Part shown: positions 5,701-30,851 of the stretch, piece by piece
Position numbering within the stretch: the first letter of the stretch is position 1
Layout of the letters: each line of letters begins with the position of its first letter
Assembly: GCA_000004695.1 (NCBI GenBank)
Contig: CM000150.2
Location: 3,712,001-3,776,000, forward strand
DNA: 64,000 nucleotides
Direction: 5' to 3'
Source of the DNA: Dictyostelium discoideum
Lineage: Eukaryota
Notes under the pieces: generated by a model
Seen by the model: the letters and a program-made list of their open reading frames with translations, nothing else
Told to the model about the DNA's origin: nothing
The model's database searches: none
Program-made: the position numbers and the translations under genes

Positions 5701-6689
5701 ATTGATGATTTAGTTCTAGTTGATATTCCTCCAAACTTTAAAGAACCTGAATCATTGAAAAATAATTTTATATTTAGATCTGTTGTTGGTATTGTTAAAT
5801 CTTGCATCTCTAGTTTATTTTTGTTATAGGTAAATCTTGAAGTTCTAACATTTGGAAATGAGTCGCTAACTATAGATACATTGAATCCATTGAATGGATC
5901 TAATGTTGATATATCATTTACCTCTAGTACATTATCTTCTATCGGTTTAGCTGAATACAATATTCTTTGAGATCCAATAAGAGATATGGAACCACCTAAA
6001 CTAAGGATACCTGGGAGAAACCCAAAAGGATCAATTTTGATTATAGTTGAAGAAAGGTCAACAAATTGTAGCACGCAATTATTACAATGAAAATTACCAC
6101 CAGGCAAAACGATTATACCTCCTAAGGTAAGTGTTTGTTGTGATCCAGCTGTGAAACTACCTTCTATACATAGGATATTTATATATGATGGATGAATTGA
6201 CAAAAGAGGGTCTAAAGTCATGTTAGATCCTATAAATTAAGAGAAAAGAAATTGAATGATGTTAATAATTTATTTAGGTTTTAAAGAGTTATAGTATTTA
6301 AATAATATAATACCTTTTGTAATTTTAATATTTGCTTTTAAAAAAGGGCTTCCCGGGAAATTGTCTATGGAAAATTCGTTTGAATTTTTATTTTTTAATG
6401 CACTGTCGCATATATCGGGATAATATAATTCATGTGGCTCTACATTGACACTGTTTGCTTTTGTTGGTATTTTTGAAAAATTTTCAAACTTATTTATTCG
6501 ATATAAGTTATAGTAACCATCGGGTGTATAAACAAAACTACCTGTTTAATAAACAAAAAAAAAAAAAAAAAATTTTGTTGGTTACTGTTAAAGTATAAAT
6601 AAAATAATAAATTTGATCATACCTATAGAAAAAGTATTATTTATTGAAAATATTATTAATATTAATAAAATATATAAAATATAATTCAT
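1353..6689 (-). CDS. Receptor-like TKL-group protein kinase: signal peptide, large G8-like/parallel beta-helix ectodomain, one transmembrane helix, then a cytoplasmic kinase domain with a poly-Asn tail. About 1637 aa. Resembles the Dictyostelium GDT (growth-differentiation transition) family
   Basis: Six exons on the minus strand: 6689..6623 ([23 protein letters not shown], a signal peptide), 6541..6314, 6229..2772, 2666..2260, 2188..2040 and 1957..1353. Donors are GTATGA, GTATTA, GTAATT, GTAAGT and GTATGT; all acceptors are AG; the total is 4914 nt, which is 1638 codons. The ectodomain carries Gly-rich G8-like motifs ([26 protein letters not shown]...[20 protein letters not shown]) and beta-helix repeats ([30 protein letters not shown]...). 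The transmembrane helix is [23 protein letters not shown] followed by a KHKKRRR stop-transfer signal. The kinase domain has GTFGIVYRG (Gly loop), [17 protein letters not shown], and an APE-like YMSNE. The C-terminus is about 60 Asn encoded by (AAT)n. Confidence 0.75.
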
Positions 6690-7538
6690 CTTTATAAAAA
6701 ATAGATGAAAATAATAAAATCACTCATAAAAAAAAGTGGTTTGAAAAAAAAAAAAAAAAAATTTAATCAATAATAAAAGATTTGAAAAAAAAAAAAAAAA
6801 AAAAATCCAAAGATTTCAAAAAAAAAAATAAAAAAAAAAAAAAGATAAAAATAAAAAATAAAAAAAATTTAAAAAGGATTTTTTTGGGCTGAATTTGATG
6901 GAAGTAAAAAAAAAAAAAAAAGAATATGGCGAATAAAAAATTGGGATACAAAAGATTAAAAATAAAATAAATTACCTACCCTCTGTGACCCCATTTTTCT
7001 TTTTAATTTGAAGGTTTATTTGGTTCAAAATTTTTAAAAAAAAAAAAAAAAAAAAAAAATAAAATAAAATAAAATAAAATAAAATAAAATAAAATAAACA
7101 AAAAAAAAAAAAAAACCAAAAACCAAAACCAAAACCAATTTAAAATAAAAACGGTAAATGTTTGATTTTATTGTTTGTACTTTTTTTTATTTTGTTTTTA
7201 TTAAAAAAAAAAAACTAATGATTAAATATTTTTTTTTTTTTTTTTTTTTTTTCCAATCTTGGTATATAATTCCATTATGTTACTAATGACTGGCATTCTA
7301 ATAATAACTCCATAAGTTTTATAAGTGTCTTGTAGAGGGACGAGTTACACTTGATTGGTAGTTTTATTAAAAAATGTAAAAAAATCTGGAAGGCTCGGTG
7401 ATTTTTTTGACCAATTTACAAATTTCCCAGATTTCGCAGATTTCGTTGTATTGTTCAAATTACAATTCTAACTCAATTTTAAAATGAAAAATCTATATTC
7501 ATTTGTAGTTTTGGCGTTATTAGTGTTGTTTATGGGAG
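6623..7538. promoter_or_regulatory. Shared divergent (bidirectional) promoter region between the receptor kinase gene (start codon at 6689 on the minus strand) and the GPI-anchored beta-helix gene (start codon at 7484 on the plus strand)
   Basis: There are 794 bp between the two start codons, with no ORF. The stretch has an extreme A/T bias, long A- and T-runs, and an (AAAAT)8 repeat at 7059-7098. Confidence 0.5.
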
Positions 7539-11385: not shown

Positions 11386-15938
<4,553 letters not shown>

Positions 15939-16334
15939 TATTTTAAAATTTATAAATGTGGTATAACAAAAACACACATCCAAAAGGTTTGTTAGGATTT
16001 GTAGGATTTGATGGAAAAAAAAAAAAAAAAAAAAAAATGATAAAAAAAAAGAAAAAAAAAGAAAAAAAAAAATTAAAAAAAAAAATTGAAAAAAAAGAAA
16101 AAAAAAAAAATCAATTTTTTTAGAATCTTTGTGATTGAATCCTGAAAAAAAAAAAAAAATAAAAAAAAAAAAATGTGATTAAATCAAAATAAAAAAAAAA
16201 AAATTAAAAATAAAATTAACAAAAAAAAAAAAAAAAAAATTTAATTTGTGTGATAAAATATTTATGTCGAAATTTTTTTTGGTTGTGAAATTACTAACAA
16301 AAAGGATATTTTTTTTTTTTTTTTTTATTTTTTA

Positions 16335-16925
16335 ATAAAAATAGATTTTATTTTTATTTTGATTGAATCCAATTTGATAAATCTTGATTAAAAGCTTTGA
16401 ACCAATTTGAATTAATTGTAACCATTTCTAAATCTTGTTTAATTGAACGATCAGCAATTGGAACTGGATGATCTTTGAAAAAGTTGACGACTTCATTGTA
16501 TTGAGAATCATCCATTTTAGAGGTGAGACAACTACCAATGATACGACCAAACAAAGGAGAGTTATTAAAGGTTTCATCGATTTGATTAAAGTTTTTGGTA
16601 AAGTAAGCCCAAGCGAATTGACGAACACGATTTGGAAGGGTAAAGAAAACCATATAACTATCTTGACTTCTAACGGATGGAGATAAAGCGAAATTGAGGG
16701 CTTTTTCAACCAATTCCTCTTTTGGAGCCAAAGCAAGTACCAAAAGGTAAGAATTCTTTTCAGCAACTAAAGAAGATTTAAGATATTGATCAATGATGAT
16801 TTGTTGATCAGCTTCACCACCATTCTTTACGATTGTAGCAAGTACTGTAGAACGAATATCTGATGGTAAACTTGAAGAGTCTGCTTTGAAAGCTTCGAAT
16901 CTTTTCTTACATTCAGCAACGATCT
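16335..16925 (-). pseudogene. Inverted partial duplicate (gene fragment) of the last roughly 590 bp of the M1 aminopeptidase gene, including its stop codon and 14 bp of its 3' flank
   Basis: The reverse complement of 16335-16925 matches 21513-22100 almost base for base. The encoded peptide ...KRFEAFKADSSSLPSDIRSTVLATIVKNGGEADQQIIIDQYLKSSLVAEKNSYLLVLALAPKEELVEKALNFALSPSVRSQDSYMVFFTLPNRVRQFAWAYFTKNFNQIDETFNNSPLFGRIIGSCLTSKMDDSQYNEVVNFFKDHPVPIADRSIKQDLEMVTINSNWFKAFNQDLSNWIQSK* differs from the parent at only a few residues (F/L, D/N, N/K). There is no upstream exon or start codon. Similarity ends abruptly at 16925 on one side and shortly after the stop codon on the other. Confidence 0.8.
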
Positions 16926-18329
16926 GAACTAATTTGACTCTCTAAATTATCAATTTCTTGTCTCTTTATTGAAAATTGATAAAATATATTTGAATGTGGT
17001 TGTTCTTGAATTAATTGATTTGATATTTTATATTTTTCATCTACATCTTCTGTGAATATAATTCAATTTCTAAATTATCTCTTAAAATTTTATTAACATC
17101 TATAATCTATTATCACTACTACCTTGACTATTACTATTAACACCACCACTACTACTACTACTATTTATAATAATTAAAAAAATTATTAAAATTGAATATA
17201 TAAATAATTATTAAATATTATCATATTTTATATATATATATATTTATATAAAATTTTTATATGACTTTTTTTTTTTTTAAAAAAATTATTTTTTTAATTT
17301 TATTATTTTAATCTATTATTATTATTTTACTATTTTATTTTTGTATATACACAATAATATTATTAATTGTATAAATATTATATGTATTTTAAAAAAAAAA
17401 AAAAAAAAAATGAAATAGAAAAAATATAAAAGTATAACCCCCTTAAAATTTAGAATTTTTATTTTTTTAATTTTTTTTTTTTTTTATTTTTTTAATATAG
17501 ACAATCAAAAAGAAAACTAGAAATATTATAAACTACAACAATATCCTACAAAATCAATAATAATATCATAATAATCAACATTAACAATCAATTGGTTGAT
17601 ATTATTCATATTTAAAATAGGGGTTAAATAAATAAAAAAAAATTATATGGACATGTTGTGTTGGTGAGTTATCGTATGAACATGGGTGCTTGCGACCGCC
17701 AAGACTAAAGGATAAAAAAAGAATTTTATTCGGGTCATAATAAAAAGTGGTATTTAACACTGTTTTGGTATATCGTAAATAGCTTTGTGGTTCACAAAAA
17801 TTATAACAAATATAGCCTATCCTGTAGAGAATTTCGTAAAACTATTTTGGAAGATTTGAATGGTCACCAAACCCTTGGGGCGTACTTTCTAAGTTCAACT
17901 TTTTCAATTTTTTCTACTTTTTTTCAGATTTTTCAAAGAAAAAATAATGAAAAAAATTAATAAATATAAATAATATTCATTTTAATTACCAAACAATCTA
18001 ATTATTATTTTTATTTGTAGTTTTTAAAAAAAAAACCGTTAAAAAACTTTTCTGATTTTTTCCTATTTTCGATAAATATTTCTTTAAAAAAGATATTATT
18101 ATTTATGTTAATTGGGGTGTTAAATATTTCTTTAAAAATTTTTTTTTTGAAGTTGTGTTTTTTTAATTAAATAAATAAATTCATAATTATTTCCTTCTAT
18201 TCATAAAAAAAAATTGTAATTGATTATATGAATTGATCGATTTCCTTTTATTAATAAAAAAAACTCATAATTATCTACTTCTATTAATAAAAAAAAAAAA
18301 TAAATTCATAATTATTTCCTTCTTTTAAT

Positions 18330-18930
18330 ATAAAAAATGGTAAACTCTTGACCAACAAAAAAGCAAAAGACTCGACCAAATTTAATGTTGTATTCTCTTG
18401 GATTAGAACCTGTATAGATAACTTATTATATTTAATTAATGAAAATGAAGAACTTAAAGAAAAACGTACTAAAGATAAACATATAATTTGGGTAGGTGTT
18501 TAATATTAAATTAATAACATTATTTTTTTTTATTTTTTTTTGTGTTAGACTCTCTTATATTGGAAACAATATCTTCCAATTAATGAGATATGTGTTACTT
18601 TTGGTATTAGTCCAAAAACATTTCAAAATCACTATAGTCAAACCATTGAGTTGTATGCAAGGAAATAATGGAAAGAGATATGATAAACTTGTTGGATCAG
18701 TTAGTTTTTTAAAACATCCTATATCTAATGTGCTTTATCGTGCAATTGCTGCTGACTCTACATCTATTGATATTGAAACTCCCGCTGATTACCAAATCCA
18801 AAAAAAATACTATTCTGGTAAAAGCAAAAGTCATGTGGTCAAATTATTCGTAAACATGATAGTTTTCCAATCTTGGGTAATTATTTTAAATAACCTCGCT
18901 ACCTCTTACTTTAATACTTTGTTATTTTAT
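18330..18930 (+). mobile_element. Decayed Harbinger/PIF-like (DDE_Tnp_4, HARBI1-like) transposase remnant
   Basis: The six-frame ORF 18496..19044 and the upstream in-frame stretch translate to ...NGKRYDKLVGSVSFLKHPISNVLYRAIAADSTSIDIETPADYQIQKKYYSGKSKSHVVKLFVNMIVFQSW. This aligns with the Harbinger core (G)AIDGTHI.I..P.......Y.NRKG.HS.N.Q.V.D, but the DGTH catalytic motif has degenerated to DSTS, and the ORF runs into poly-Y/F/I low complexity, so it is truncated. It lies in the spacer between the inverted aminopeptidase duplicates. Confidence 0.4.
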
Positions 18931-19262
18931 TATTATTATTATTTTTTTTTTTTTATTATTATAATAATTATATATTATTGGTATTTTTTATTTATAAAAA
19001 TTAAAATCTGGGCAATAAAAAAAAAAAATAAAAAAAAAAAATAAAATAAATAAAAAAAAATAAAAAAATTTTTATTTTTTTTTTTGTGATCATCAATTTA
19101 ATTTGTTTTAATTTATTTTATTTTTTTTAATTTTTTTTTTTTTAATTTTTTTTTTTTTAATTTTTTAAAATGAAAAAAATAAATTTAATTTCGATTATTA
19201 TTTTTATAATTTCACTTGTTTATTTTAATTTTATACATATAAATAATAATATAGTTGAAAAA

Positions 19263-20170
19263 ATGTGTGATCATAAACATTTAGTTGACAAAGTAGATAG
19301 ATTAGTATTACCAGATAATATCGTACCAAGTAAATACGATTTACATCTTAGACCAAATTTAAAGGATTTTGTATTCAGCGGCAAAGTTGACATTACAATC
19401 AATATTGTTAAACCAACCAAAAAAATCATTATCCATTCAATTGACATTGAAATTCAATCAGTAAAGATCTTAAATCAACAAGCTACTTCCGTTACCTACT
19501 ATGAACCAGAAGAAGTTGCAATTTTAGAATTCCAAGATGAATTACCAGTTACAGAAAATACAATTCTCTCCATTGATTTCACTGGTATTTTAAATGACAA
19601 ATTAAAAGGTTTCTATCGTTCAAAATATGTTGTCAATGGTGAAGATCGTTATATTGGTACCACTCAATTCGAAGCCACTGATGCTCGTCGTGCTTTCCCA
19701 TGTTTTGATGAACCTGCTTTAAAATCTTTCTTTAATATTAAAATCACTATTTCATCTCATTTAACTGCTCTTTCAAATATGGATACAACTTCTGTAATTG
19801 AAAATAATGATGGTACTAAAACCTTTATGTAAGTGTATTATATATATTATATTGAGAAAAAAAAAAAAAAAAAAGTACTAATTTTTTTTTTTTTCTTTAT
19901 TTTTTTTTTTAAAATTAAAAGTTTTGAACAAACTCCAAAGATGAGTACTTATATTGTTGCATTTATAGTTGGTGAATTCGATCATATTGAGTCACATACT
20001 AAAGAAGGTATTAGAGTTAGAGTTTACAAATGTGTTGGTAATAAAGAATCAAGTGAATTTGCTTTAGATGTTGCCACCAAATCATTATCTTATTTCATTG
20101 ATTACTTTGGTATTCCATATCCATTAAATAAATGTGATCACATTGCCATTCCAGTACGTATTTTTTATTA

Positions 20171-20229
<59 letters not shown>

Positions 20230-22083
20230 TAATCATATTCTTCTTAATAATAATATGTTAATTCCTTTAATAATATATAATGATACCATTACCAATCACC
20301 ATCACCATAGGACTTCTCCTTTGGAGCTATGGAAAACTGGGGTTTAATTACTTATCGTGAATCAATTTTATTAACATCAGATAAAACTACTCTTCGTACT
20401 AAACAAAGAATTGCTAATGTAATTGGTCATGAATTAGCACATCAATGGTTTGGTAATTTAGTAACAATGGAATGGTGGAGTCAATTATGGTTAAATGAAG
20501 GTTTTGCAACATTTATGGGATATTTATCAACTCATCATTTATTCCCAGAATGGGAAGTTTGGAATGATTTCTCTGATTGTTATAGAAATGGTGCACTTCG
20601 TTTAGATGCTTTAGAGAATTCACATGCAATTGAAGTACCAGTACGTCTTTCGTCTCAAATTTCAGAAATTTTTGATGCCATTTCTTATAACAAAGGTTCA
20701 TGTGTAATTCAAATGTTAGAGAGTCGTTTCGGTGAATCATTTAGAAAAGGTCTTCATCATTATTTGGATACTCATTCCTATAAGAATACCAATACCGATG
20801 ATCTTTGGGCTTCAATTTCATTGATTAGTGGTGTTGATGTTAAATCATTCATTGATTCATTCACAAAGTATCCAGGTTATCCAGTAGTTTCATTCACTCC
20901 AACTTCAACTGAAGGTACCTTTGAATTATCTCAAAAGAAATTTAGATTACAAGGTTCTGAGAAATCTGATGATCCAATTTGGAATTGTTTCATTAGATTC
21001 CAAACTGGTAATGCTGGTCAACATGAATTCATCTTGGAGAAGAAATCCGATACCGTAACAATTCCAAACTTTAAAAATGGTGATTGGATTAAACCAAACT
21101 ATGGTCAAACTGGTTATTTCCGTATTGCCTACTCACCTGAAACTATCAAAGCATTGGTTCCAAAGATTAAATCAATGGAAATTCCAACTCCAGATCGTTT
21201 AGGTTTATTATCAGATGTTTTCAATCTTTGCAAGGCACACACTTCTTCCATCTCTGCCTATATGGATTTAGTTTTGGCTTTTGAAGATGAAAAGGAAAGT
21301 AATGTTTGGGATTTCATTATCGATAGTCTTGGTTCTATTCAAACTTTAATTGAAGATCAACCATACTCAAGTAGATTCAATGAAATCTTTGTTCAACTTT
21401 TGAAACCACTTTCAAAACGTTTAGGTTTCGAGCCAACCAAAGGTGAACCATCTTCAGATACCTTGTTAAGAGATAAAGTAAACACTAAATTGGGTATGTT
21501 GGGTGATGCTGATATCGTTGCTGAATGTAAGAAAAGATTCGAAGCTTTCAAAGCAGACTCTTCAAGTTTACCATCAGATATTCGTTCTACAGTACTTGCT
21601 ACAATCGTAAAGAATGGTGGTGAAGCTGATCAACAAATCATCATTGATCAATATCTTAAATCTTCTTTAGTCGCTGAAAAGAATTCTTACCTTTTGGTAC
21701 TTGCTTTGGCTCCAAAAGAGGAATTGGTTGAAAAAGCCCTCAATTTCGCTTTATCTCCATCCGTTAGAAGTCAAGATAGTTATATGGTTTTCTTTACCCT
21801 CCCAAATCGTGTTCGTCAATTCGCTTGGGCTTACCTCACCAAAAACTTTAATCAAATCAACGAAACATTTAAAAACTCTCCTTTGTTTGGTCGTATCATT
21901 GGTAGTTGTCTCACCTCTAAAATGGATGATTCTCAATACAATGAAGTCGTCAACTTTTTCAAAGATCATCCAGTTCCAATTGCTGATCGTTCAATTAAAC
22001 AAGATTTAGAAATGGTTACAATTAATTCAAATTGGTTCAAAGCTTTTAATCAAGATTTATCAAATTGGATTCAATCAAAATAA
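19263..22083 (+). CDS. M1-family zinc aminopeptidase (puromycin-sensitive aminopeptidase-like), about 856 aa
   Basis: Three exons: 19263..19828 (donor GTAAGT), 19922..20153 (donor GTACGT) and 20311..22083; total 2571 nt. Motifs: GFYRS, FEATDARRAFPCFDEP, MSTYIVAFIVGEF, the GAMENWGLITYRE exopeptidase motif, and the HELAHQWFGNLVTMEWW...LWLNEGFA zinc-binding site (HEXXH-18-E). There is an alternative in-frame upstream start codon at 19170 (MKKINLISIIIFIISLVYFNF...) that would add a hydrophobic N-terminus; which start is used is unresolved. Confidence 0.85.
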
Positions 22084-22306
22084 AAATAAAATCTCTTACA
22101 ATGAAAGATCTTTGTTTTAATAATTGATAGTGATAAAAAAAAATGAGACGAAAACTAAAATAAACATCAAATTATTGTTTTCCTTTTTAAAACACAAATT
22201 TTATTTTTTTAAATTTATTGTTTTGGTTAAAAAAAAAATTGCTTTTTTTTTTTGTTTTTGCGTTCATCCAGAAGTATAGATTTATTTTTGGTAACATATG
22301 AATGTA

Positions 22307-22341
<35 letters not shown>

Positions 22342-22476
22342 TTATTCATTTATAAAAAAAAAAAAAATAATATTTAAAAAATGAAAAATTTTATGTTTTT
22401 TTTTTTTTTTGTGCAACAATTCTGTTTTTTAGGACTTGTTTCGTTAAATTAAAAAATAATATAAAAAAATTAGAAA

Positions 22477-22916
22477 ATGAGTGAAAATAATAAAAATAAT
22501 AATGATAATGTAAAACCATTAAATGAAATGACAAAAGAGGAAAGAACCAATTATAGTTTAAGAAGAGCACCTGATTATCATGGTAAAGAGGAAAGTGTTT
22601 TAAATAGCTCAAGAACTAAATGTTGGGAAGCAAGAGATAAATATTTTAAATGTTTAGATGATAATAAAGAAGATGATTCAAAATGTAAAGCATTTTATAA
22701 TGAATTAAATAATTCATGTTTAAAGAGTTGGGTAAGAATTTTTTTCAATTTTTAAAATATAAAAAGTTAATCTTTTTATTAAAATAAATAAATCTCAAAA
22801 TCAATTACTAATCTTTTTTTTTTTTTTCTTTTTTTTTGTATCAATACAAAATAACAGAGCGAATATTTTATTAAAAAAAGAATATCAGATAAAAATAAAG
22901 AAGCATTTTTAAATAG
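22477..22916 (+). CDS. Cytochrome c oxidase assembly factor 6 (COA6) homologue, a twin Cx9C/Cx10C CHCH protein of about 107 aa
   Basis: Exons 22477..22731 (donor GTAAGA) and 22848..22916 (acceptor AACAG). The peptide ...CWEARDKYFKCLDDNKEDDSKCKAFYNELNNSCLKSW/SEYFIKKRISDKNKEAFLNRKD* matches the COA6 core CWGARDEYWKCLDEN...CKKLRSSFESSCPQQWIKYFDKRR. Confidence 0.7.
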
Positions 22917-23333
22917 AAAAGATTAAATATAAAAAAGTATAATATAATATAATATAAAATAAAAAAAAAAAAAAGATCAACCACAACTTTTAGTGGTTTT
23001 TAAACATGTAATTATTTCAAAAATTTATTTATTTATTTATTTATTTATTCTTTTTTTTATTTATTAAGTTGAATTTGTAATTTAGGTTATTTTGAATAAA
23101 ATTATTATAAAGTTTCAAGTTTACAAATGTATATTTGTGATATATAATAGATTATGTTTTTTAAATTGATCAATCCAGATTTTAATTTTTGGGGGTATGA
23201 TTTTTGGGAGGGGGGTATTTTTTTTTTCGAAAAAGATATTATTTTTTTTTTTTAATCAAATTTATTATTATAATAATTATTAATTAAAATTTTTAAATAA
23301 TAATTTATAATTATAATTTTTTTTTTAATTAAT

Positions 23334-23939
23334 TTACATTATTATACAATTTTTTTTAAATTTTTTATTATTTTTCTTTTTTTCTTTTGATTGACATTTT
23401 TGATGAGCTTCACAAGCGTCAATTGCTTTTTCAAATACTAAATGTAAATTCTTTTGTGTTAGTGCACTACATTCCACAAAATCAAATGCATTAATTTTCT
23501 TTGAAAGTTCAATACCTTGTTGAGTTGAAATTGGTAATTGTTTTTTTTCACATAGTCTATCCAGTATAACTGAATTTGATTTTAAATCCATTTGAGTACC
23601 AACTAAAACTATTGGAGTATTTGGACAATTTTCATTTAATTCTTGTACCCATGAATCTAAAATATTTGAAAATGATGATGGATTTATAAGTGAAAAACAT
23701 AATAAAAATACATCAGTTTGAGGATAACTTAACCTTCTTAATTTACTAAACTCTTCTTGACCTGCAGTATCCCACAATGATAAATTATATGGTTTTTTAT
23801 TATGCATTAATAAAGTTGAATAGTTATCAAATACTGTTGGTTGATATTCATTTGAAATTGAATTTGATGTATAACTTAATAACATTGATGTTTTACCAAT
23901 TCCACCTTCGCCAACAACACAAACTTTAATACTTTTCAT
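23334..23939 (-). CDS. Rho/Rac-family small GTPase (201 aa) with a C-terminal CaaX box (CIIM)
   Basis: A single exon. The peptide [24 protein letters not shown]...WDTAGQEEF...LVGTQMDL...ECSALTQ... has a polybasic stretch before CIIM. The P-loop reads GEGGIGKT rather than the usual GDGAVGKT, so it is a divergent Rac paralogue. Confidence 0.85.
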
Positions 23940-24783
23940 TTTTTAATCGATTAATTATTTTACTATAATAAATAAAATAAAAATAATAATAAATATAAAA
24001 TAAATTTGTTTATTTATTTATTTATTTATTATTTTTTTATTTTTTGTAAAAAAAAAAAAAAAATAATAACAAAATTATTTTATTAATAATTTAAAAACAA
24101 TTAATTAAAATTTTAATATAAAATAATTTTAAAAAAATAAAATAAAATAAAAAAAAACAAATAATAAAATAAAAAAAAAAATAATTACATTTTAAAAATG
24201 TGGGGGTATTTATTATTTATTTGTTTTTATTAAATTTTCCAAATTAACAATAAAATTAATATCACAACTAATTTATAGTAATTTATTTTATCTCTTTTTA
24301 TTTATTTTGATAATATGATTATATTAAATTTTTTTTATTTTATTTTTTTATTCCAAAAATTATTCTTTTTTTTTTTTTTTTTATTATTTAAACACACACA
24401 ATATTTCTCTGAAAAAAATTCAAACACAATAAATTTGAAATATTTGTTTTTTTTTTTTTTACCATTCAACTTTACACCAACTTCAAAAATTTGTTTTTTT
24501 TAACTTCCTTTAGCAAACACATAACTGAGTAGTCTTTTTTATTTTTAACTTTAATTTATAATAATAAAAATAAAAAAAAAAATAAAAAAAAAATAAAAAA
24601 ATAAAAATAAAAATAAAAATAAAAATAAAAATAAAAAAAAAATAAAAGGATACAATATAGAATTACATTTATACAAAAAGTTTATTATTACTATAATTTT
24701 ATTTATTTTTTTTTTTTCTTTTTTTTCTATCGCTTTTTTTTTTTTTTTTATTAATATTATTATTTACTATTAAAATTTGAATT

Positions 24784-25308
24784 TTATGAACAAGTTGATT
24801 TTTCAGAATTATTTGAAGGCATTGGTTTACCACAACCACCACCACAACAAGTAGTTGGTTGTTCATCATCAATTTGAATCTTTCCTCTCTTTTTTCTTTG
24901 TGGTGGTTGATCATTTACAAATTCATATTGTTGGTATGACTTTGTATTTTCATCAAATTTAAGTTCTAAATTTATTATAAAGTAAAATAAACATTAATAT
25001 AATGTTTGGGTTTTTTTTTTTTTTTTTTTATTTTTATTCTTCTAAACTAATTTAAAAAAAAACATACGAATGGTTTTTTCATCTTTTCTAACACCTTGAA
25101 TTAAATCTTTAACTAAAAAATGAGAGACAGCATTTGCATGATCTATCATTTCATTAATTTTTGTATTATCTGTTTCATTTTTATTATCTCTAAATTGAAC
25201 TCTTGTTAAATTGATTACATGTTCAAGTGCTCTTTTATCATTTTGAAATACCTTTTTCTCTGTTCTTAATAAACCTAAATAGCTAGATAAAACTTTTGCT
25301 CTATTCAT
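24784..25308 (-). CDS. LYR-motif protein 7 (LYRM7/MZM1 homologue; a complex III Rieske-protein assembly chaperone), about 140 aa
   Basis: Exons 25308..25068 (donor GTATGT, phase 1) and 24965..24784 (acceptor TTTAG). The peptide MNRAKVLSSYLGLLRTEKKVFQNDKRALEHVINLTRVQFRDNKNETDNTKINEMIDHANAVSHFLVKDLIQGVRKDEKTIR... aligns with human LYRM7 ([69 protein letters not shown]). The phase of the second exon is less certain. Confidence 0.6.
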
Positions 25309-25737
25309 TATTACAATAATATACTTTCGGCTGTTTTTTTTTTGAAAATGAAAAAAAATAAAAAAAAAAATTAAAAAAAATTTAAATATTGAAATAAAAA
25401 AAAAAAATAAAATAAAAAATAAAATTAAAAAAAACAAAAAATCCAATTTTCCCATTTTTAGGATGATTTTTATTTTCATTTTTAAAAAAGATAATTTTCT
25501 TAATTCGAAATAAAAAAAACAAATAAAATAAAATAAAATAAAATTACCCTTACACAATAAAAAAATATAAGATTAGATAAAATAAAATAAAAAAAAACAA
25601 CAAATAAATCAAATTTCCCATTTTAAGGAAATGATTTTTATTTTTATTTTTATTTTTATTTTTATTCAAAACAAATGATTTTCATTTGAAAAAAAATGAA
25701 AAAAATAAAAAAAAAAAAATAATAATAAAAATTATTA

Positions 25738-27165
25738 TTAATTATTATTAGAAAAAACTAAATTACCTTTTTTAAATACATGGGAAATTGGTGGATCAAC
25801 CATTTCATAAATGATATGTTCCCATTTATCAGCAGATAATATAACAAAATCAGCAAATTTACCAACTTCTAGTGAACCATGAGTTGAAGATTTATTGATT
25901 GAGGCAGCAGCATTTAAGGTGGCAGCAACTAAAGATTCGTTCATATTCATTTTCATGAGTACACACGCTAAATTCATAACAAAAGGCATTGATAAACAAT
26001 GAGCATTTGGATTGAAATCACTTCCCAATGCGACTGGTACACCTAATTCAATCATTCTTCTAGCGGGTGGACATTCCAATCTTAAGATGTAAGCTGTGGT
26101 TGGTAAAAGTACAGCAAAGGTTGGAGTGGCAGCCATTGCCTTCATACCATCTTCACTAACCTTCTCAAGATGACTAATTGCCCTGCAACCCAACTCACCT
26201 GCCAATTCACCAGATTTCATATAGGATAATTCATCGCCATGGAAATTGCACTCCAATCCAATATCTTTACCAGCTTGAAGGATACGTTTAGTGTCTTCAT
26301 ACTCAAAGAAACCTTTCTCAAGGAAGACATCGATATTAGCTGGCGATATTTCCCCAGCGTCTTTTAATCTCTTCAATTCTGGTATCTGTTTATTGATGAT
26401 GTCGTCGGTGGCCTCGGATGCATTCATACCCTTTGGGATTGCATGGCCGCCTAAATAGGTGGACACGATTTCAACACCTTGAAATTGTTTAGATGCTCTA
26501 TCTAACACTTTCAACATTTTCATCTCGGTTTCAGTCTCTAATCCATACCCACTCTTTGCTTCAATCAATGTTGTACCATTCTTTAACATTCTATTCAATC
26601 TTGGTATTAAAAGTTGATAAAGTTCATCCTCTGTACTATTTTTAGTATGTGAAATAGTGAATTGAATACCACCACCTGCTTTATGAACATCTAAATAGGT
26701 TGCTCCTGCTAATTTCATTGCAAATTCATGAACACGATCACCACTAAATACTGGATGTGTATGTCCATCAACAAATCCTGGTAATACAGATTTTCCTGTA
26801 CAATCTAAAACTTTTTCAAAACTTTTATCTTTATATTTCTCTTCCATTTCTTTAAATGTACCAATATCAAAAATAATACCATTTTCATCAATAATCATTG
26901 TACCATTTTCAATAATTTCAATCTAAAAATTTTAGATTTAATTGAAAATAATAATAATAATAATAATAATAATTTATTATAGTAGTAAAAAAAATTAATA
27001 AATTGGTTTTTTTTTTTTTAAATTTTTTTTTTTTTTTTTTATATTTATATTTATATTTATTTATCATACATTACTCATTTCTTTACCAATTAAAAATGGT
27101 TTACCTTTTGAAATCACAACTAATTGTGATGCATTTGAAATTTTTAATTTAAAATCGAATCCCAT
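25738..27165 (-). CDS. hutI: Imidazolonepropionase (HutI / AMDHD1-like amidohydrolase; the third step of histidine degradation), about 426 aa
   Basis: Exons 27165..27070 (MGFDFKLKISNASQLVVISKGKPFLIGKEMSN, donor GTATGA) and 26922..25738. Motifs: PGFVDGHTHPVF, AGGGIQFT, HGDELS, and the C-terminal GSDFNPN...VFKKGNLV. Confidence 0.85.
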
Positions 27166-27249
27166 TTTTTTAAATTTATCTGTTTAGTTGTTTAAATGAA
27201 AATTAGAAAAAAAAATGAAAATGAAAATTTAAAAAAAAAAAAAACAAAA

Positions 27250-27289
<40 letters not shown>

Positions 27290-27426
27290 ATAGAAAAATA
27301 AAGTAAAAAAAAAAAAGTTACCAAAACAAATAATTCCACATAAAATTACATTTCACCACATTTTTGCAGAAATTTTATATGCAGCCAATCTTTTTAAAAA
27401 TATTTAATAAATCTTTCTTAATTTTT

Positions 27427-27466
<40 letters not shown>

Positions 27467-27519
27467 CAATGATTTAATTTTATTTATTTTTAATATGGAT
27501 TTAGTATAGATAAATAGAA

Positions 27520-28260
27520 CACTCAAAAATACACAAAATGATATAATAATGGTATTAAAATGTGAAATTTTCTTTGCTGTGATAAAAAATAATAAAAAAA
27601 AGTATGACCTATTAATTTTTATTATTGTTTTTTAAATAAACCTTAAGCTGTACTTATTAAGAAAGGCTGTTCCAGTGCTGTTTTTCGGCTAAATTTAATT
27701 CTCTTCTTTTTAGGTAGGTTACCAAAATCCTATTCTTTTACTTTTTTTTAAAAAATATACTATTGAATATTGTATTGGTAGATTAATAATACAGCACAGC
27801 AAAGAAAATCCAGCATTAAAATGACATTTAAAATAAAATGTAATTTAAATGATATTTTTAATATCATTTAAATACCATTAAAAATTAAATGATATTTTTA
27901 ATATCATTTAAATACCATTAAAAATCAAATGTCATTTAAATTTTATTTAAATGATATTATAATTAATAATATAGTTAAAATATAATTAGTAATATAATTA
28001 ATAATATAATTTAAATTACATTTACCATTAAAATGATCATTAAAATGAAAATTAATATTAATATTTTAAATGATATTATATTGTTAATTTTTATATAATT
28101 TAAAATTTAATTAGTAATAAAATTAATAATATAATTTAAATTACATTTACCATTAAAATGACAATTAAAATGAAATTTTAAGGGAAATTTAAAGTTAAAT
28201 TAAAAATTTCATTATTAAGAATATTTAAATGTTAACAAATTTGTTCTAAATTGTTTCATT
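27520..28260. repeat. Copy of an unnamed interspersed repeat with internal direct sub-repeats; the same element occurs inverted at 45790-46740
   Basis: The block 27600-27830 (gtatgacctattaattttt...ggctgttccagtgctgttt...ggtaggttaccaaaatcctattctttt...cagcacagcaaagaaaatccagcattaaaatgacatttaaaataaaatgtaatttaaatgatat...) is the reverse complement of 46240-46420 and 46640-46720. Internal sub-repeats (aaatgatatttttaatatcatttaaataccattaaaaat, twice) are shared. Confidence 0.7.
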
Positions 28261-28689
28261 TAGTTTAAATTTTTTTCCACTAAAAATAATATAAATATAA
28301 TTAAAACAGATAACGAATTCATTCAATGTGAAGTTAGGAAAATAAAAAAAAAAAAATAAAAAAATAAAAAAATAGTATTGAATTAAAAACAAATTAAAGT
28401 TTTCCATATCCATGAAAAATTAAAATAGTTTTATATTTTTATTTATTTTTTTTTTCTTAATATCTATGATGCAAGGAATTGGAATTTTTAAGAAACATTT
28501 AGAATAAAATCACCAACAGGGAATTTTGGTCAAACTTTAAATTTTTTTTTTTTTTTTTTTTTTTTGTAAATGGTAAAATCCATATCACTTCCAATTAAAG
28601 ATTAATTAAAGTTATTAACTTTTAATAATTATTTTTTAAAATTTTAAATAAAAAAAAGTAATTTATATACATATATTTTATTAATAATA

Positions 28690-28757
<68 letters not shown>

Positions 28758-28758
<1 letters not shown>

Positions 28759-30851
28759 TAAGCTTGAGATTGTTTATCATCATTATTATTATGATTATTT
28801 AATATTGAAGATGGTTGTTTATCTATTGAAGATGACTCAATTTCATTTGAGTTTGAATTTGAGTTTGATTGATCAATCTTTTTTAAAGAGATTGATTGAC
28901 CTCTTGTTTTTCTAGTTTCCCTTGTTTTTTCTCCACTTGATCCTGATGAATTTGATGAAGTACTTGATTTTTTACTTGGTACTGGAGTATTTCCCCATTT
29001 GATACCAACTAAATGTAATAAATAGTTGAATCTTTCAGACTCTCTATAAATAGTTGCAATATGAGGATCAATACCTAACCCAAATAAAAGAAGTATACCA
29101 ATAATTGACATACAAAAAGCATTCATATATCTAAGACCAAATCTTGAAAATTGAATTCTTGGACATTGATCATTTCCTTTTTCTAATAAACAATATACCC
29201 ATTTTTCAATTGCATCATAAAATACTTCACCATTATACGATACATATAATGGATACATTGATGTAAATGAAATACAAAATAAAATTACTAATAAAAATGT
29301 AACTGATCTTAACTTTAATAAATAAATAAAATTAATAAAAATTAATAATTCTATATATATAATACACAAAAATTTTAATTTAAAATTAATACTTACATTT
29401 AAAAATAAAATTCTTCTATCATTTATTGATTTAAATAAAACAGTCATTTTAAATACTTTATATATTGATGATGTAATAAAAATAACCATTAAAAATGTTA
29501 CAATATATGCTGGTACTATAATTATAATTTTTTAAAAAAATTTAAAAATTTTAGTAATGTTAATTTAATTTTAAAAAATAAATAATTAATACATACTATA
29601 AAAACAAAAATATAACCAAAACCTATTATTATATTCACCAATCCAACAACCTGCACTATCAATAGTAGATTCATAATGTTTTATTGGTAATAAAGCAAAG
29701 AAAAAAATTAATGCCCAAACTCCAATTGATGTTTGTAAAAAGTATTTATTTGTTTCTAAAATTAAAAAAAATAAAAAAAATAAAAAAAAAATTAGATAAT
29801 TATTAATTTACTATTATTTTTATTAATTTTTAAAAAATTTATACTTACTCATATTAATAGTTAAAAAGAAATCAAATGAATAAAGTGATAACATAAATAT
29901 AGTACCTAAACCACCCATTTGAAAAAAAAAACCAGTTAACATACAATTACCATCTTGACTACTACGATATCTACCAGGTTGTGATGAACATCTAAAATCA
30001 CCATTACCATATTGTTGAGTTGCATAACTTGCACATAATGCTAAAACTGTAAATCCCAAATAAATGATAATCCAACTACGATGTGTAATTTTATTTTGAA
30101 TTAAACCAAATGTAAGAATTAAATAAACTGCAATTGTTGCAGATACACAATAAAATACAACTTCAGTATAAAATTTTGCATCATATTGTTTGTCTGTATA
30201 AACATATAATGGACAAGGTAAAACACAATTTGGCATTACTTCATGAAACTTTTCACCATTTTTTATATCATCTGTTGAAACATAAACCAATGGATAAACA
30301 CATGAAACTGTGGTATTGGTTGATCCTTGATTTGGATTTGAACATTGAATTGATTGATTTGAAGAACCACCATAACTTGTTAAATTATAATAATTCTCTG
30401 TAATTGGGTAAAGATCCTTACCATCGGTATCATTTTGTTGACATGAAAAACCTTGGAAAAATGAAAGAAAAGGTACACATGTTTCTAAAACTTTAAAACA
30501 ATTCTTTTGACATGGATTCGATGGTAAAGGGAATGAAATACCATTTATATTACTATTACATTCTCTATAGGTTGAAATACAAAATAATTTAATTATATTC
30601 TCTTTACAAATTAAATCTGGAATTGCACTAAATCCCATTGGATTTGTTAAAGTTGCTGTAACATTTGCTTCAATAATTTCTTGAGTATATCCATATGGTA
30701 AATAAATATTTTTATAACCTAAATAATTTGAACACATTGAAATTGGATTTAATATTTCACATTTTGATCCAATATCTAAACTATTTACAAATAATTTTTT
30801 TAAAAAAAAAAATTTTAAAAAAATTAAAAGAATTTTCATTTTCATTTTCAT
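28758..30851 (-). CDS. Frizzled/smoothened-like 7TM receptor (Fsl family): signal peptide, Frizzled-type cysteine-rich domain, seven transmembrane helices and a Ser-rich cytoplasmic tail; about 611 aa
   Basis: Four exons on the minus strand: 30851..29849 (donor GTAAGT), 29755..29597 (donor GTATGT), 29515..29397 (donor GTAAGT), and approximately 29312..28758. The last acceptor is uncertain by one nucleotide: the six-frame track reads through this 84-85-nt intron in frame, whereas my own count of the printed bases gives 85. The cysteine-rich domain is [16 protein letters not shown]...[22 protein letters not shown]...[16 protein letters not shown]...FSC; seven hydrophobic helices follow. Confidence 0.7.

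What the first reader, a model, noticed from the sequence alone, without database searches (positions are those of the whole stretch)
17640..18930. Decayed Harbinger/PIF-type transposase remnant, plus a second dead ORF, in the spacer of the inverted duplication
The translation of 18330-18900 (plus strand) contains ...AIAADSTSIDIETPADYQIQKKYYSGKSKSHVVKLFVNMIVFQSW, which aligns with the first catalytic block of Harbinger/HARBI1 DDE_Tnp_4 transposases (AIDGTHI.I..P....Y.NRKG.HS.N.Q.V.D). The catalytic motif has mutated (DGTH to DSTS) and the C-terminus is lost. In addition, 17641-17900 on the minus strand carries a roughly 90-codon protein-like frame (LNLESTPQGFGDHSNLPK*FYEILYRIGYICYNFCEPQSYLRYTKTVLNTTFYYDPNKILF...GGRKHPCSYDNSPTQHV) of unusually high GC content for this genome. 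Harbinger-type elements are not among the transposons I know to be described for Dictyostelium (DIRS, Skipper, DGLT, TRE, Tdd, DDT, thug). A dead copy lying next to a captured host-gene fragment resembles the transduplication seen with Pack-MULE and PIF elements.
Basis: partly seen in the sequence, partly recalled or inferred. Interest (0 to 1): 0.6.

Follow-up and report, generated by a model that had tools for sequence, protein, structure and literature searches.

The report
Two dead DNA-transposon fragments upstream of psa
The flagged stretch of Dictyostelium discoideum DNA holds two adjacent, broken and immobile transposase-gene fragments, a piggyBac-type tail followed by a Harbinger/PIF-type remnant; this is ordinary genomic debris, and its only wider point is that both transposon types lie outside the textbook Dictyostelium list.

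Summary
The window is D. discoideum AX4-type chromosome 1 DNA: two AX4 proteins are encoded at 100% identity.

- **Harbinger remnant confirmed.** Window 18072-19068 (+) is a decayed, internally deleted Harbinger/PIF (DDE_Tnp_4) transposase remnant (tblastn E 7.6e-36). More complete relatives in other Dictyostelium assemblies reconstruct to a three-exon, about 327-aa protein. That protein covers the whole Pfam DDE_Tnp_4 profile (E 2e-22) and sits inside 3.8-4.3 kb elements with about 55-65-nt terminal inverted repeats (TIRs).
- **"DSTS" is not decay.** The motif is conserved across the family and the catalytic D is kept. The real damage is a stop codon, frameshifts, a 151-bp deletion that removes the second catalytic D, loss of exon 3, and loss of both TIRs.
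- **The second ORF was read on the wrong strand.** Window 17628-17960 (+) is the C-terminal 115 codons of a piggyBac-type transposase, 82% identical to a 530-aa D. discoideum DDE_Tnp_1_7 protein (E 3e-52). Its 3' tail runs to about 18076 and abuts the Harbinger piece.
- **Transduplication is not supported.** The host-gene fragment sits in its ancestral position. The arrangement is an in-situ inversion of the aminopeptidase gene.

Verdict: an ordinary patch of dead transposon fragments and a new member of known kinds. Interest is low.

The parts
17628..17960 (+). piggyBac-type (DDE_Tnp_1_7) transposase pseudogene fragment covering the last 115 codons. Strong similarity begins at about 17658. 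It has an in-frame stop at 17706-17708 (Q to stop) and a 15-bp deletion (five codons), and it ends at the family's own stop codon at 17958-17960.
   Evidence: tblastn of P0125 residues 416-530: 82% identity, E 3.1e-52. P0125 matches Pfam PF13843 at E 8e-50. The window fragment alone scores PF13843 E 0.0074 at profile positions 303-346 of 349. DNA is 87% identical to L007 6354-6813.
17961..18076 (+). 3' non-coding tail of the same piggyBac-type element. It is joined to the Harbinger piece through a short shared GATAA-type microhomology at about 18072-18085. This is not a recognisable piggyBac end.
   Evidence: Alignment to L007 6673-6813. Harbinger homology starts at 18071-18099.
18072..18336 (+). 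Harbinger-family internal region upstream of the transposase ATG, 5'-truncated. The left TIR and the partner ORF are missing. It contains tandem copies of about 85-90 bp (18162-18263 and 18246-18337).
   Evidence: blastn to L001 5793-6000 and L004 5768-5990, 80-84% identity. Internal repeat.
18337..18491 (+). Transposase exon 1 remnant. The ATG is at 18337, a TGA stop sits at codon 5 (18349-18351, shared with L004), and a window-specific 4-bp deletion shifts the frame.
   Evidence: Alignment A1; tblastn.
18492..18548 (+). Intron 1 remnant (GT...AG), shortened relative to other copies.
   Evidence: Alignment A1; sequence.
18549..18876 (+). Transposase exon 2 remnant. It carries the HTH_Tnp_4-like region and the first catalytic block (AIAADSTS...YYSGKSKSH). 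It has 10-bp and 1-bp deletions, plus a 151-bp deletion at about 18845/18846 that removes the GFPGSVHD block (second catalytic D) and is shared with L004.
18877..19068 (+). Intron 2 remnant fused at about 18993 to the element's 3' subterminal A-rich region. This deletion of about 418 bp removes all of exon 3, including the third catalytic residue, and is shared with L004. The piece stops before the terminal part of the right TIR. Host psa upstream sequence resumes at about 19069.
   Evidence: Alignments A1 and A3. TIR searches negative in the window. Host homology from 19067-19070 in D. firmibasis and D. citrinum.

Best explanation
Window 17628-19068 is a patch of two dead class II transposon fragments on the plus strand. 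The patch lies directly upstream of the puromycin-sensitive-aminopeptidase-like gene (psa) of D. discoideum AX4.

**Left piece (17628 to about 18076).** This is the 3' end of a piggyBac-type element: the last 115 codons of the transposase plus its 3' tail.

**Right piece (18072-19068).** This is an internally deleted copy of a dictyostelid Harbinger/PIF-type element.
- It keeps the transposase promoter region, exon 1, intron 1 and most of exon 2.
- It carries a stop codon, three frameshifting indels and a 151-bp deletion that removes the second catalytic Asp.
- It has lost exon 3 (third catalytic residue), the partner ORF and both terminal inverted repeats.

**Consequence.** Neither piece can encode a transposase or be mobilised. 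They do nothing enzymatic. Their only plausible present-day effect is passive, as the sequence now lying immediately upstream of psa.

**History (inferred).** A non-autonomous derivative already carrying the two deletions was copied to at least two loci, because the L004 copy in the same genome shares both deletions and still has the right TIR. The window copy then lost its ends through illegitimate junctions. One junction is to a piggyBac fragment; the other is in the A-rich subterminal region.

Shown: identities, lesions, absence of TIRs, absence of the patch from orthologous sites in sister species. Inferred: order of events, mobilisation in trans.
For: **Harbinger assignment**
- P0001 and P0002 pass the DDE_Tnp_4 gathering score: 32.2 and 34.4 bits against a cutoff of 24.8.
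- Adding the unannotated exon 3 (GDRAYISLPNF...RVYVENFF...) gives 326-327-aa proteins that match DDE_Tnp_4 positions 2-157 of 158, at E 2e-22 and 2.3e-20.
- The D / D(GSVHD) / E(VENFF) triad is present in D. discoideum-lineage copies.
- TIRs of about 55-65 nt (TAAATTTTATGAAAAAATGAAAAGTTGG...) bound L001 3656-7449 and L003 3437-7753. Right TIRs also occur in L002 and L004.

**Window copy**
- tblastn E 7.6e-36.
- The lesions and shared deletions are read from alignment A1.
- There is no TIR in the window.

**piggyBac assignment**.

**Context**
- The patch is absent upstream of psa in D. firmibasis and D. citrinum.
- It is present and 99.7% identical in D. discoideum strain locus L011.
- The window is AX4: P0127 and P0131 are encoded at 100% identity.
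Against: - The window fragments alone do not reach Pfam gathering scores. The family assignment rests on closer homologues.
- No 3-bp TWA target-site duplication could be demonstrated for the family. The flanks are TAA/TTA-like at 4 of 6 ends, which is weak evidence in 78% AT DNA.
- The partner ORF of the full-length copies shows no Myb/SANT Pfam hit.
- An automatic gene model in a sister strain (P0133) splices 78 codons of the remnant onto psa. Some transcription or exonisation therefore cannot be excluded.
Confidence: 0.9

Rival explanations
1. Transduplication: a Harbinger/PIF element captured the 3' fragment of the aminopeptidase gene and carried it here, as Pack-MULEs do.
For: A 593-bp, 98% identical inverted copy of the psa 3' end (16331-16923) lies about 1.15 kb from the transposon remnant.
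Against: - The fragment is contiguous with the same left-hand neighbour sequence as the intact psa 3' end in D. citrinum (window 14492-16929 matches L010 10725-8358) and in D. cf. discoideum L006. It is therefore the original in-place 3' end.
- It is the full gene that is inverted relative to the COX6B side.
- No TIRs flank the fragment, and none exist anywhere in the window.
- A piggyBac fragment and 0.7 kb of AT-rich DNA lie between it and the Harbinger piece.
- Other copies of the family (L001-L004) carry no psa sequence.
Confidence: 0.03
2. Domesticated HARBI1-like host gene or exonised transposon sequence: the remnant is a functional gene, or a 5' exon or promoter of psa, rather than junk.
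For: - The D. firmibasis relative (L002) has an intact three-exon ORF in a genic neighbourhood. Its catalytic E is replaced by K and only one TIR was found.
- The strain gene model P0133 fuses window 18583-18816 to psa.
- After the inversion only about 100-190 bp of native upstream sequence remains in front of psa.
Against: - The window copy has a stop at codon 5, frameshifts, and two large deletions that remove two of the three catalytic residues.
- It is absent from the orthologous site in D. citrinum and D. firmibasis.
- The AX4 model of psa starts at 19263, without the remnant.
- P0133 is an automatic prediction with no expression evidence available here.
Confidence: 0.07
3. The 17640-17900 block is a non-coding RNA gene or a minus-strand ORF.
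For: The GC content (34%) is raised with no codon-position periodicity. Open frames of roughly 80 codons exist on both strands.
Against: - There is no tRNA and no Rfam match, even at E up to 10.
- Folding z-scores are +0.8 and +0.6, no better than shuffles.
- A six-frame query hit only the plus-strand frame, a piggyBac transposase at 85% identity. The minus-strand frames hit nothing.
Confidence: 0.02

Closest known systems
PIF/Harbinger superfamily DNA transposons (Pfam DDE_Tnp_4, PF13359; HARBI1 is the domesticated vertebrate relative)
   Same: - The family transposase covers the whole DDE_Tnp_4 profile and has an N-terminal HTH_Tnp_4-like region.
- It has a DDE triad with the typical G-x-x-H-D and GD-x-x-Y / R-x-x-V-E blocks.
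- The elements have TIRs and carry a second ORF.
- Deleted non-autonomous derivatives exist.
   Different: - The first catalytic block reads AADSTS instead of the usual (A/V)IDGTH.
- The transposase is short (about 327 aa).
- TIRs are long (about 55-65 nt).
- The second ORF has no detectable Myb/SANT domain.
- A TWA target duplication was not demonstrated.
- The window copy itself retains only the N-terminal half and no ends.
piggyBac superfamily (Pfam DDE_Tnp_1_7, PF13843). Repbase lists a D. discoideum entry, piggyBacA-1_DD, according to bioRxiv 10.64898/2026.03.01.708701 Table S1
   Same: Window 17628-17960 is 82% identical to the C-terminus of a 530-aa D. discoideum protein whose residues 157-473 match the piggyBac transposase domain (E 8e-50).
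   Different: - Only the last 115 codons and the 3' tail survive.
- No TTAA-flanked ends were identified.
- Whether it is the Repbase family piggyBacA-1_DD could not be checked.
Classical D. discoideum DNA transposons (Tdd-4/5, DDT-A/B/S, thug-S/T)
   Same: These too are low-copy, mostly defective class II elements in the same genome.
   Different: The review PMC5633606 states that none of their transposases resembles known transposases, whereas both fragments here belong to well-known superfamilies. I could not compare sequences directly, so I cannot exclude that one of those named families is in fact this Harbinger-type element.
Inversions with inverted duplications at the breakpoints (staggered-break model; from my own knowledge, described for Drosophila inversions)
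   Same: The psa gene is inverted in place. A 593-bp copy of one end is kept in the old orientation at the opposite breakpoint.
   Different: This is context only. No transposon sequence was found at the second junction (22107-22388), so a transposon-mediated mechanism is not shown.

Membership tests
PIF/Harbinger (DDE_Tnp_4) transposon | Transposase with a DDE_Tnp_4 catalytic domain | tested here: met
   Family level: reconstructed 326-327-aa proteins score E 2e-22 and 2.3e-20 over profile positions 2-157 of 158. P0001 and P0002 score above the gathering cutoff. Window copy: only the first 30-34 profile positions survive, and the hit is sub-threshold (E 0.004-0.16). The window copy is 81% identical to P0001.
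PIF/Harbinger (DDE_Tnp_4) transposon | Complete D-D-E catalytic triad | tested here: not met
   Window copy: the first D is kept (AADSTS). The second D (GSVHD) is removed by the 151-bp deletion, and the third residue (VENFF) is lost with exon 3. At family level the triad is present in L001 and L003; D. firmibasis has K in place of E.
PIF/Harbinger (DDE_Tnp_4) transposon | Terminal inverted repeats | tested here: not met
   No TIR match anywhere in the 64-kb window. The right end stops in the A-rich subterminal region. At family level TIRs are present: L001 and L003 have both ends, L002 and L004 have the right end.
PIF/Harbinger (DDE_Tnp_4) transposon | 3-bp TWA (TAA/TTA) target-site duplication | tested here: inconclusive
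   The window copy has no ends. In relatives, the three bases outside the TIR are TAA, TAA, TAA and TTA at four ends and TAT and AAT at two. This is uninformative in DNA that is about 78% AT.
PIF/Harbinger (DDE_Tnp_4) transposon | Second ORF encoding a Myb/SANT-like DNA-binding protein | tested here: inconclusive
   A divergent second gene is shared by the full-length copies (L001 3935-5149 and L003 4155-5682, minus strand). It has no Pfam hit at E up to 10. It is absent from the window.
piggyBac (DDE_Tnp_1_7) transposon | Transposase with a DDE_Tnp_1_7 domain | tested here: met
   P0125 matches PF13843 at E 8e-50. The window fragment aligns to P0125 residues 416-530 at 82% identity, E 3e-52. 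Alone it scores PF13843 E 0.0074 at the profile's end. Only the last ~58 residues of the domain (P0125 416-473 of 157-473) are present.
piggyBac (DDE_Tnp_1_7) transposon | TTAA target duplication and CCC...GGG-type TIR ends | tested here: inconclusive
   No convincing TIRs were found around the L007 copy. The window fragment ends at an illegitimate junction with the Harbinger piece.
Pack-type transduplicating element | Host gene fragment enclosed between the element's TIRs and moved to a new locus | tested here: not met
   No TIRs are present. The psa fragment lies in its ancestral position next to its ancestral neighbours.

The most novel reading that the evidence does not exclude
The remnant is a marker of a dictyostelid-wide PIF/Harbinger lineage that has not been described in the literature. 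The lineage has an atypical AADSTS first catalytic block, TIRs of about 55-65 nt and a partner ORF without a recognisable Myb domain. Relatives occur in D. discoideum, D. cf. discoideum, D. firmibasis, D. purpureum and Polysphondylium violaceum. Its deleted derivatives may have been mobilised in trans. This family, together with a piggyBac family, would extend the accepted D. discoideum DNA-transposon inventory (Tdd, DDT, thug). The transposon patch may also have accompanied the species-specific inversion that created the AX4 gene DDB_G0269852.
Probability: 0.3. Interest if true: 0.4.

Novelty: new member of a known kind. Interest (0 to 1): 0.25.

Why it matters
The practical value is for annotation.
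- It shows that the AX4 reference carries unannotated remnants of two standard cut-and-paste superfamilies, Harbinger/PIF and piggyBac. Neither appears in the usual published list of D. discoideum DNA transposons.
- It explains an odd AX4 gene model. DDB_G0269852 combines a 20-codon exon from the AT-rich DNA of the inserted patch, just left of the transposon fragments, with a leftover psa 3' end.
- It explains a chimeric psa model in a sister strain.
- It dates the patch to after the split from D. citrinum and D. firmibasis.

It does not reveal a new mechanism. The fragments are inert.

Tried and rejected
- **tRNA and Rfam scans** (gathering scores for the whole window; E up to 10 on 17400-18100) found nothing relevant.
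- **RNA folding** of 17620-17900 on both strands was no better than shuffles.
- **Reading 17640-17900 as a second, more diverged DDE_Tnp_4 fragment.** I considered a stitched CVGELSYEH...FYSGHNKK... frame. Pfam gave no support, and the FYSGHNKKWY motif proved to belong to piggyBac.
- **TIR search in the window** using the family TIR returned only T-rich low-complexity matches.
- **Myb/SANT test of the partner ORF** gave no Pfam hit.
- **TSD inference** was inconclusive.
- **piggyBac TIRs in L007** were not found.
- **Transposon sequence at the other inversion junction** (22091-22480): none.
- **PDB sequence search** with the reconstructed transposase: no relative.
- **Look-up of the AX4 psa protein P0131** in the contig collection: not on record.
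- **Glockner et al. 2001** (PMC311061) is not held.
- **Literature searches** for Harbinger, PIF or DDE_Tnp_4 in Dictyostelium found no description of such a family.
- **Weak similarity to the old spacer.** Window 17290-17493 is 68% similar to the D. firmibasis psa-COX6B spacer. This hints that the transposon patch is an insertion into the old spacer, but the similarity is too AT-rich to trust.

Full report
**What the window is.** The DNA is extremely AT-rich. Two D. discoideum AX4 proteins are encoded in it at 100% identity. One is the 215-aa DDB_G0269852 (exons 17609-17550 and 16941-16357, minus strand). The other is the 856-aa puromycin-sensitive-aminopeptidase-like protein, here called psa. 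A D. discoideum strain assembly is collinear with window 12119-30000 at 99.7% identity (L011). The finding therefore concerns the 2.1-kb spacer between DDB_G0269852 and psa on AX4-type chromosome 1.

**The Harbinger claim.** The quoted peptide is present on the plus strand.
- Alone, the conceptual translation gives only weak Pfam hits, but they are collinear and correctly ordered: HTH_Tnp_4 (E 0.008), then DDE_Tnp_4 (E 0.004-0.014), both below the gathering score.
- A search of 5.8 billion proteins returned four Dictyostelium proteins. These are P0001 (D. discoideum, 81% identity, E 1.7e-59), P0002 (D. firmibasis), P0003 (D. cf. discoideum) and P0004 (D. discoideum). P0001 and P0002 pass the DDE_Tnp_4 gathering score.
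- I fetched their loci and aligned the DNA. The annotated genes turned out to be truncated. A third exon, GDRAYISLPNFVVPHKRSK...NNFVSSNRVYVENFFLKINHFK..., follows a second intron.
- The reconstructed 326-327-aa proteins match DDE_Tnp_4 over positions 2-157 of 158 at E 2e-22 and 2.3e-20. The three catalytic blocks are AADSTS (D), GFPGSVHD (D) and RVYVENFF (E).
- L001 3656-7449 and L003 3437-7753 are bounded by inverted repeats of about 55-65 nt that begin TAAATTTTATGAAAAAATGAAAAGTTGG. The same right end is present in L002 and L004.
- The two full-length copies share a second, divergently oriented gene. It gave no Pfam hit, so a Myb-like partner is not shown.
- A library-wide HMMER search found only 30 relatives at E up to 1e-3. 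The named ones come from D. cf. discoideum, D. purpureum and Polysphondylium violaceum, and some are already auto-tagged 'DDE Tnp4 domain-containing'.

This is a genuine, rather isolated, dictyostelid PIF/Harbinger-type lineage.

**State of the window copy.** tblastn of the reconstructed transposase against the window gives E 7.6e-36, and there is no other copy in the 64 kb. Homology to the family runs from about 18072 to 19068. Read against alignment A1, the copy has these lesions:
- an ATG at 18337 followed by TGA at codon 5 (shared with L004);
- a private 4-bp deletion in exon 1;
- a shortened intron 1;
- private 10-bp and 1-bp deletions in exon 2;
- a 151-bp deletion at about 18845 that removes the second catalytic Asp;
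- a deletion of about 418 bp that fuses intron 2 (about 18993) to the 3' subterminal region and removes all of exon 3.

The last two deletions have identical ends in the L004 copy, which lies at another locus of the same genome as L011 and still carries the right TIR. The two copies therefore descend from one already-deleted derivative that reached two sites. They are about 84-90% identical, so this is old.

In the window the copy is also truncated at both ends. On the left it starts about 265 bp upstream of the ATG. On the right it stops in the A-rich subterminal tract at about 19068, where homology to the psa upstream region of D. firmibasis and D. citrinum resumes. No TIR-like sequence exists anywhere in the window.

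AADSTS is invariant in the family, including copies with a complete domain, and the Asp is retained.

**The 'second dead ORF'.** The block at 17640-17900 is real: GC is 34% against 10-20% around it, without codon periodicity.
- It is not a tRNA or a known RNA family, and it does not fold better than shuffles.
- It does not match the Harbinger loci.
- My own attempt to read it as a diverged DDE_Tnp_4 block failed.
- A query made of all six frames hit one protein, through the plus-strand frame only. This is P0125, a 530-aa D. discoideum protein whose residues 157-473 match the piggyBac transposase domain PF13843 at E 8e-50.
- tblastn places P0125 residues 416-530 on window 17628-17957 at 82% identity, E 3.1e-52. 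There is an in-frame stop at 17706-17708, a 15-bp deletion, and the same terminal stop codon.
- DNA homology to the P0125 locus (87%) continues through the 3' tail to about 18085. There it meets the Harbinger piece across a few shared bases, an illegitimate junction rather than an element end.

**Context and the transduplication idea.** In D. citrinum (L010) and D. firmibasis (L005), psa lies with its 5' end facing COX6B. In D. citrinum its 3' end is contiguous with the sequences that lie left of 16331 in the window.

In the window the whole gene (19069-22106) is inverted in place. A 593-bp copy of its 3' end remains in the old orientation and position (16331-16923; 98% identical to 21514-22106). 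The spacer between the two (16930-19068) holds AT-rich DNA followed by the two transposon fragments. The same left-neighbour/3'-end adjacency is seen in D. cf. discoideum L006.

The host fragment was therefore not captured and moved by an element. No TIRs enclose it, other family copies carry no psa sequence, and the second inversion junction (22107-22388) has no transposon homology. The pattern fits an inversion with a staggered break at one end. Whether the transposon patch was already in the psa-COX6B spacer before the inversion (weak hint) or was filled in during repair cannot be decided here.

**Function.** Both fragments are inert pseudogene pieces. One automatic gene model in a sister strain (P0133) splices 78 codons of the remnant (18583-18816) onto psa. 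This is a prediction only, and the AX4 model starts at 19263. A passive role as upstream sequence of the inverted psa gene is possible but untested.

**Novelty.** The 2017 review PMC5633606 lists only Tdd, DDT and thug as D. discoideum DNA transposons. It states that none of their transposases resembles known ones. My literature searches found no description of a Harbinger/PIF family in Dictyostelium. Against that, Repbase already holds piggyBacA-1_DD, and UniProt auto-annotates dictyostelid DDE Tnp4 proteins. The remnants themselves are ordinary. The family is at most a new member of a well-known superfamily.

Noticed in passing
window 16331-16923, 19069-22106 and 22389 onward; L005, L010, L006: The aminopeptidase gene is inverted in situ in D. 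discoideum relative to D. citrinum and D. firmibasis. A 593-bp copy of its 3' end is retained in the old orientation at the left breakpoint, which fits a staggered-break inversion. No transposon sequence lies at the right junction (22107-22388).
   Followed up: partly
window 17609-17550 and 16941-16357 (minus strand): The AX4 gene DDB_G0269852 (215 aa, 'ERAP1-like C-terminal domain') consists of a 20-codon first exon taken from the AT-rich inserted patch, just left of the piggyBac fragment, spliced to the leftover psa 3' fragment. It looks like a by-product of the rearrangement rather than an independent gene.
   Followed up: partly
window 18583-18816 spliced to about 19255; L011 8001-11473: The automatic annotation of D. 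discoideum strain GCA_054883475.1 predicts a 937-aa psa whose first 78 residues come from the Harbinger remnant ORF. No expression data were checked.
   Followed up: partly
L004 4452-5279 (minus strand) and 5768-6873 (plus strand): At a second locus of the same genome, two partial copies of the Harbinger-type element lie head-to-head. One carries the same two deletions as the window copy plus an intact right TIR. The other retains exon 3.
   Followed up: partly
L001 185-1216 and 1481-3169: The transposon-rich 79-kb contig that holds the best Harbinger copy also encodes a second, different DDE_Tnp_4-type gene (...GDSAYI...RRVYVEQFFG...) and hAT-type genes (Dimer_Tnp_hAT, ZBED1 RNase-like). These are further DNA-transposon superfamilies outside the classical Dictyostelium list.
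   Followed up: no
L002 6001-7321: The D. firmibasis relative has an intact three-exon ORF, but Lys replaces the third catalytic Glu (RAYVKNFF). Only the right TIR was found, and the copy sits among ordinary genes. It could be an inactivated or a domesticated copy.
   Followed up: no
window 18162-18337: Tandem copies of about 85-90 bp (AAATAAATTCATAATTATTTCCTTCT...) lie just upstream of the transposase ATG and are conserved in other copies of the family. They might be transposase-binding or promoter repeats.
   Followed up: no
L008 and L009 (D. discoideum strains GCA_054859355.1 and GCA_054859385.1): The psa gene in these strains is 98% identical to the window in its 3' two-thirds but only 91% in its 5' third. 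Within 6 kb it is flanked by different sequences, including a partial upstream duplicate of the psa N-terminus. This suggests the locus is structurally polymorphic, or that these assemblies represent a divergent lineage.
   Followed up: no
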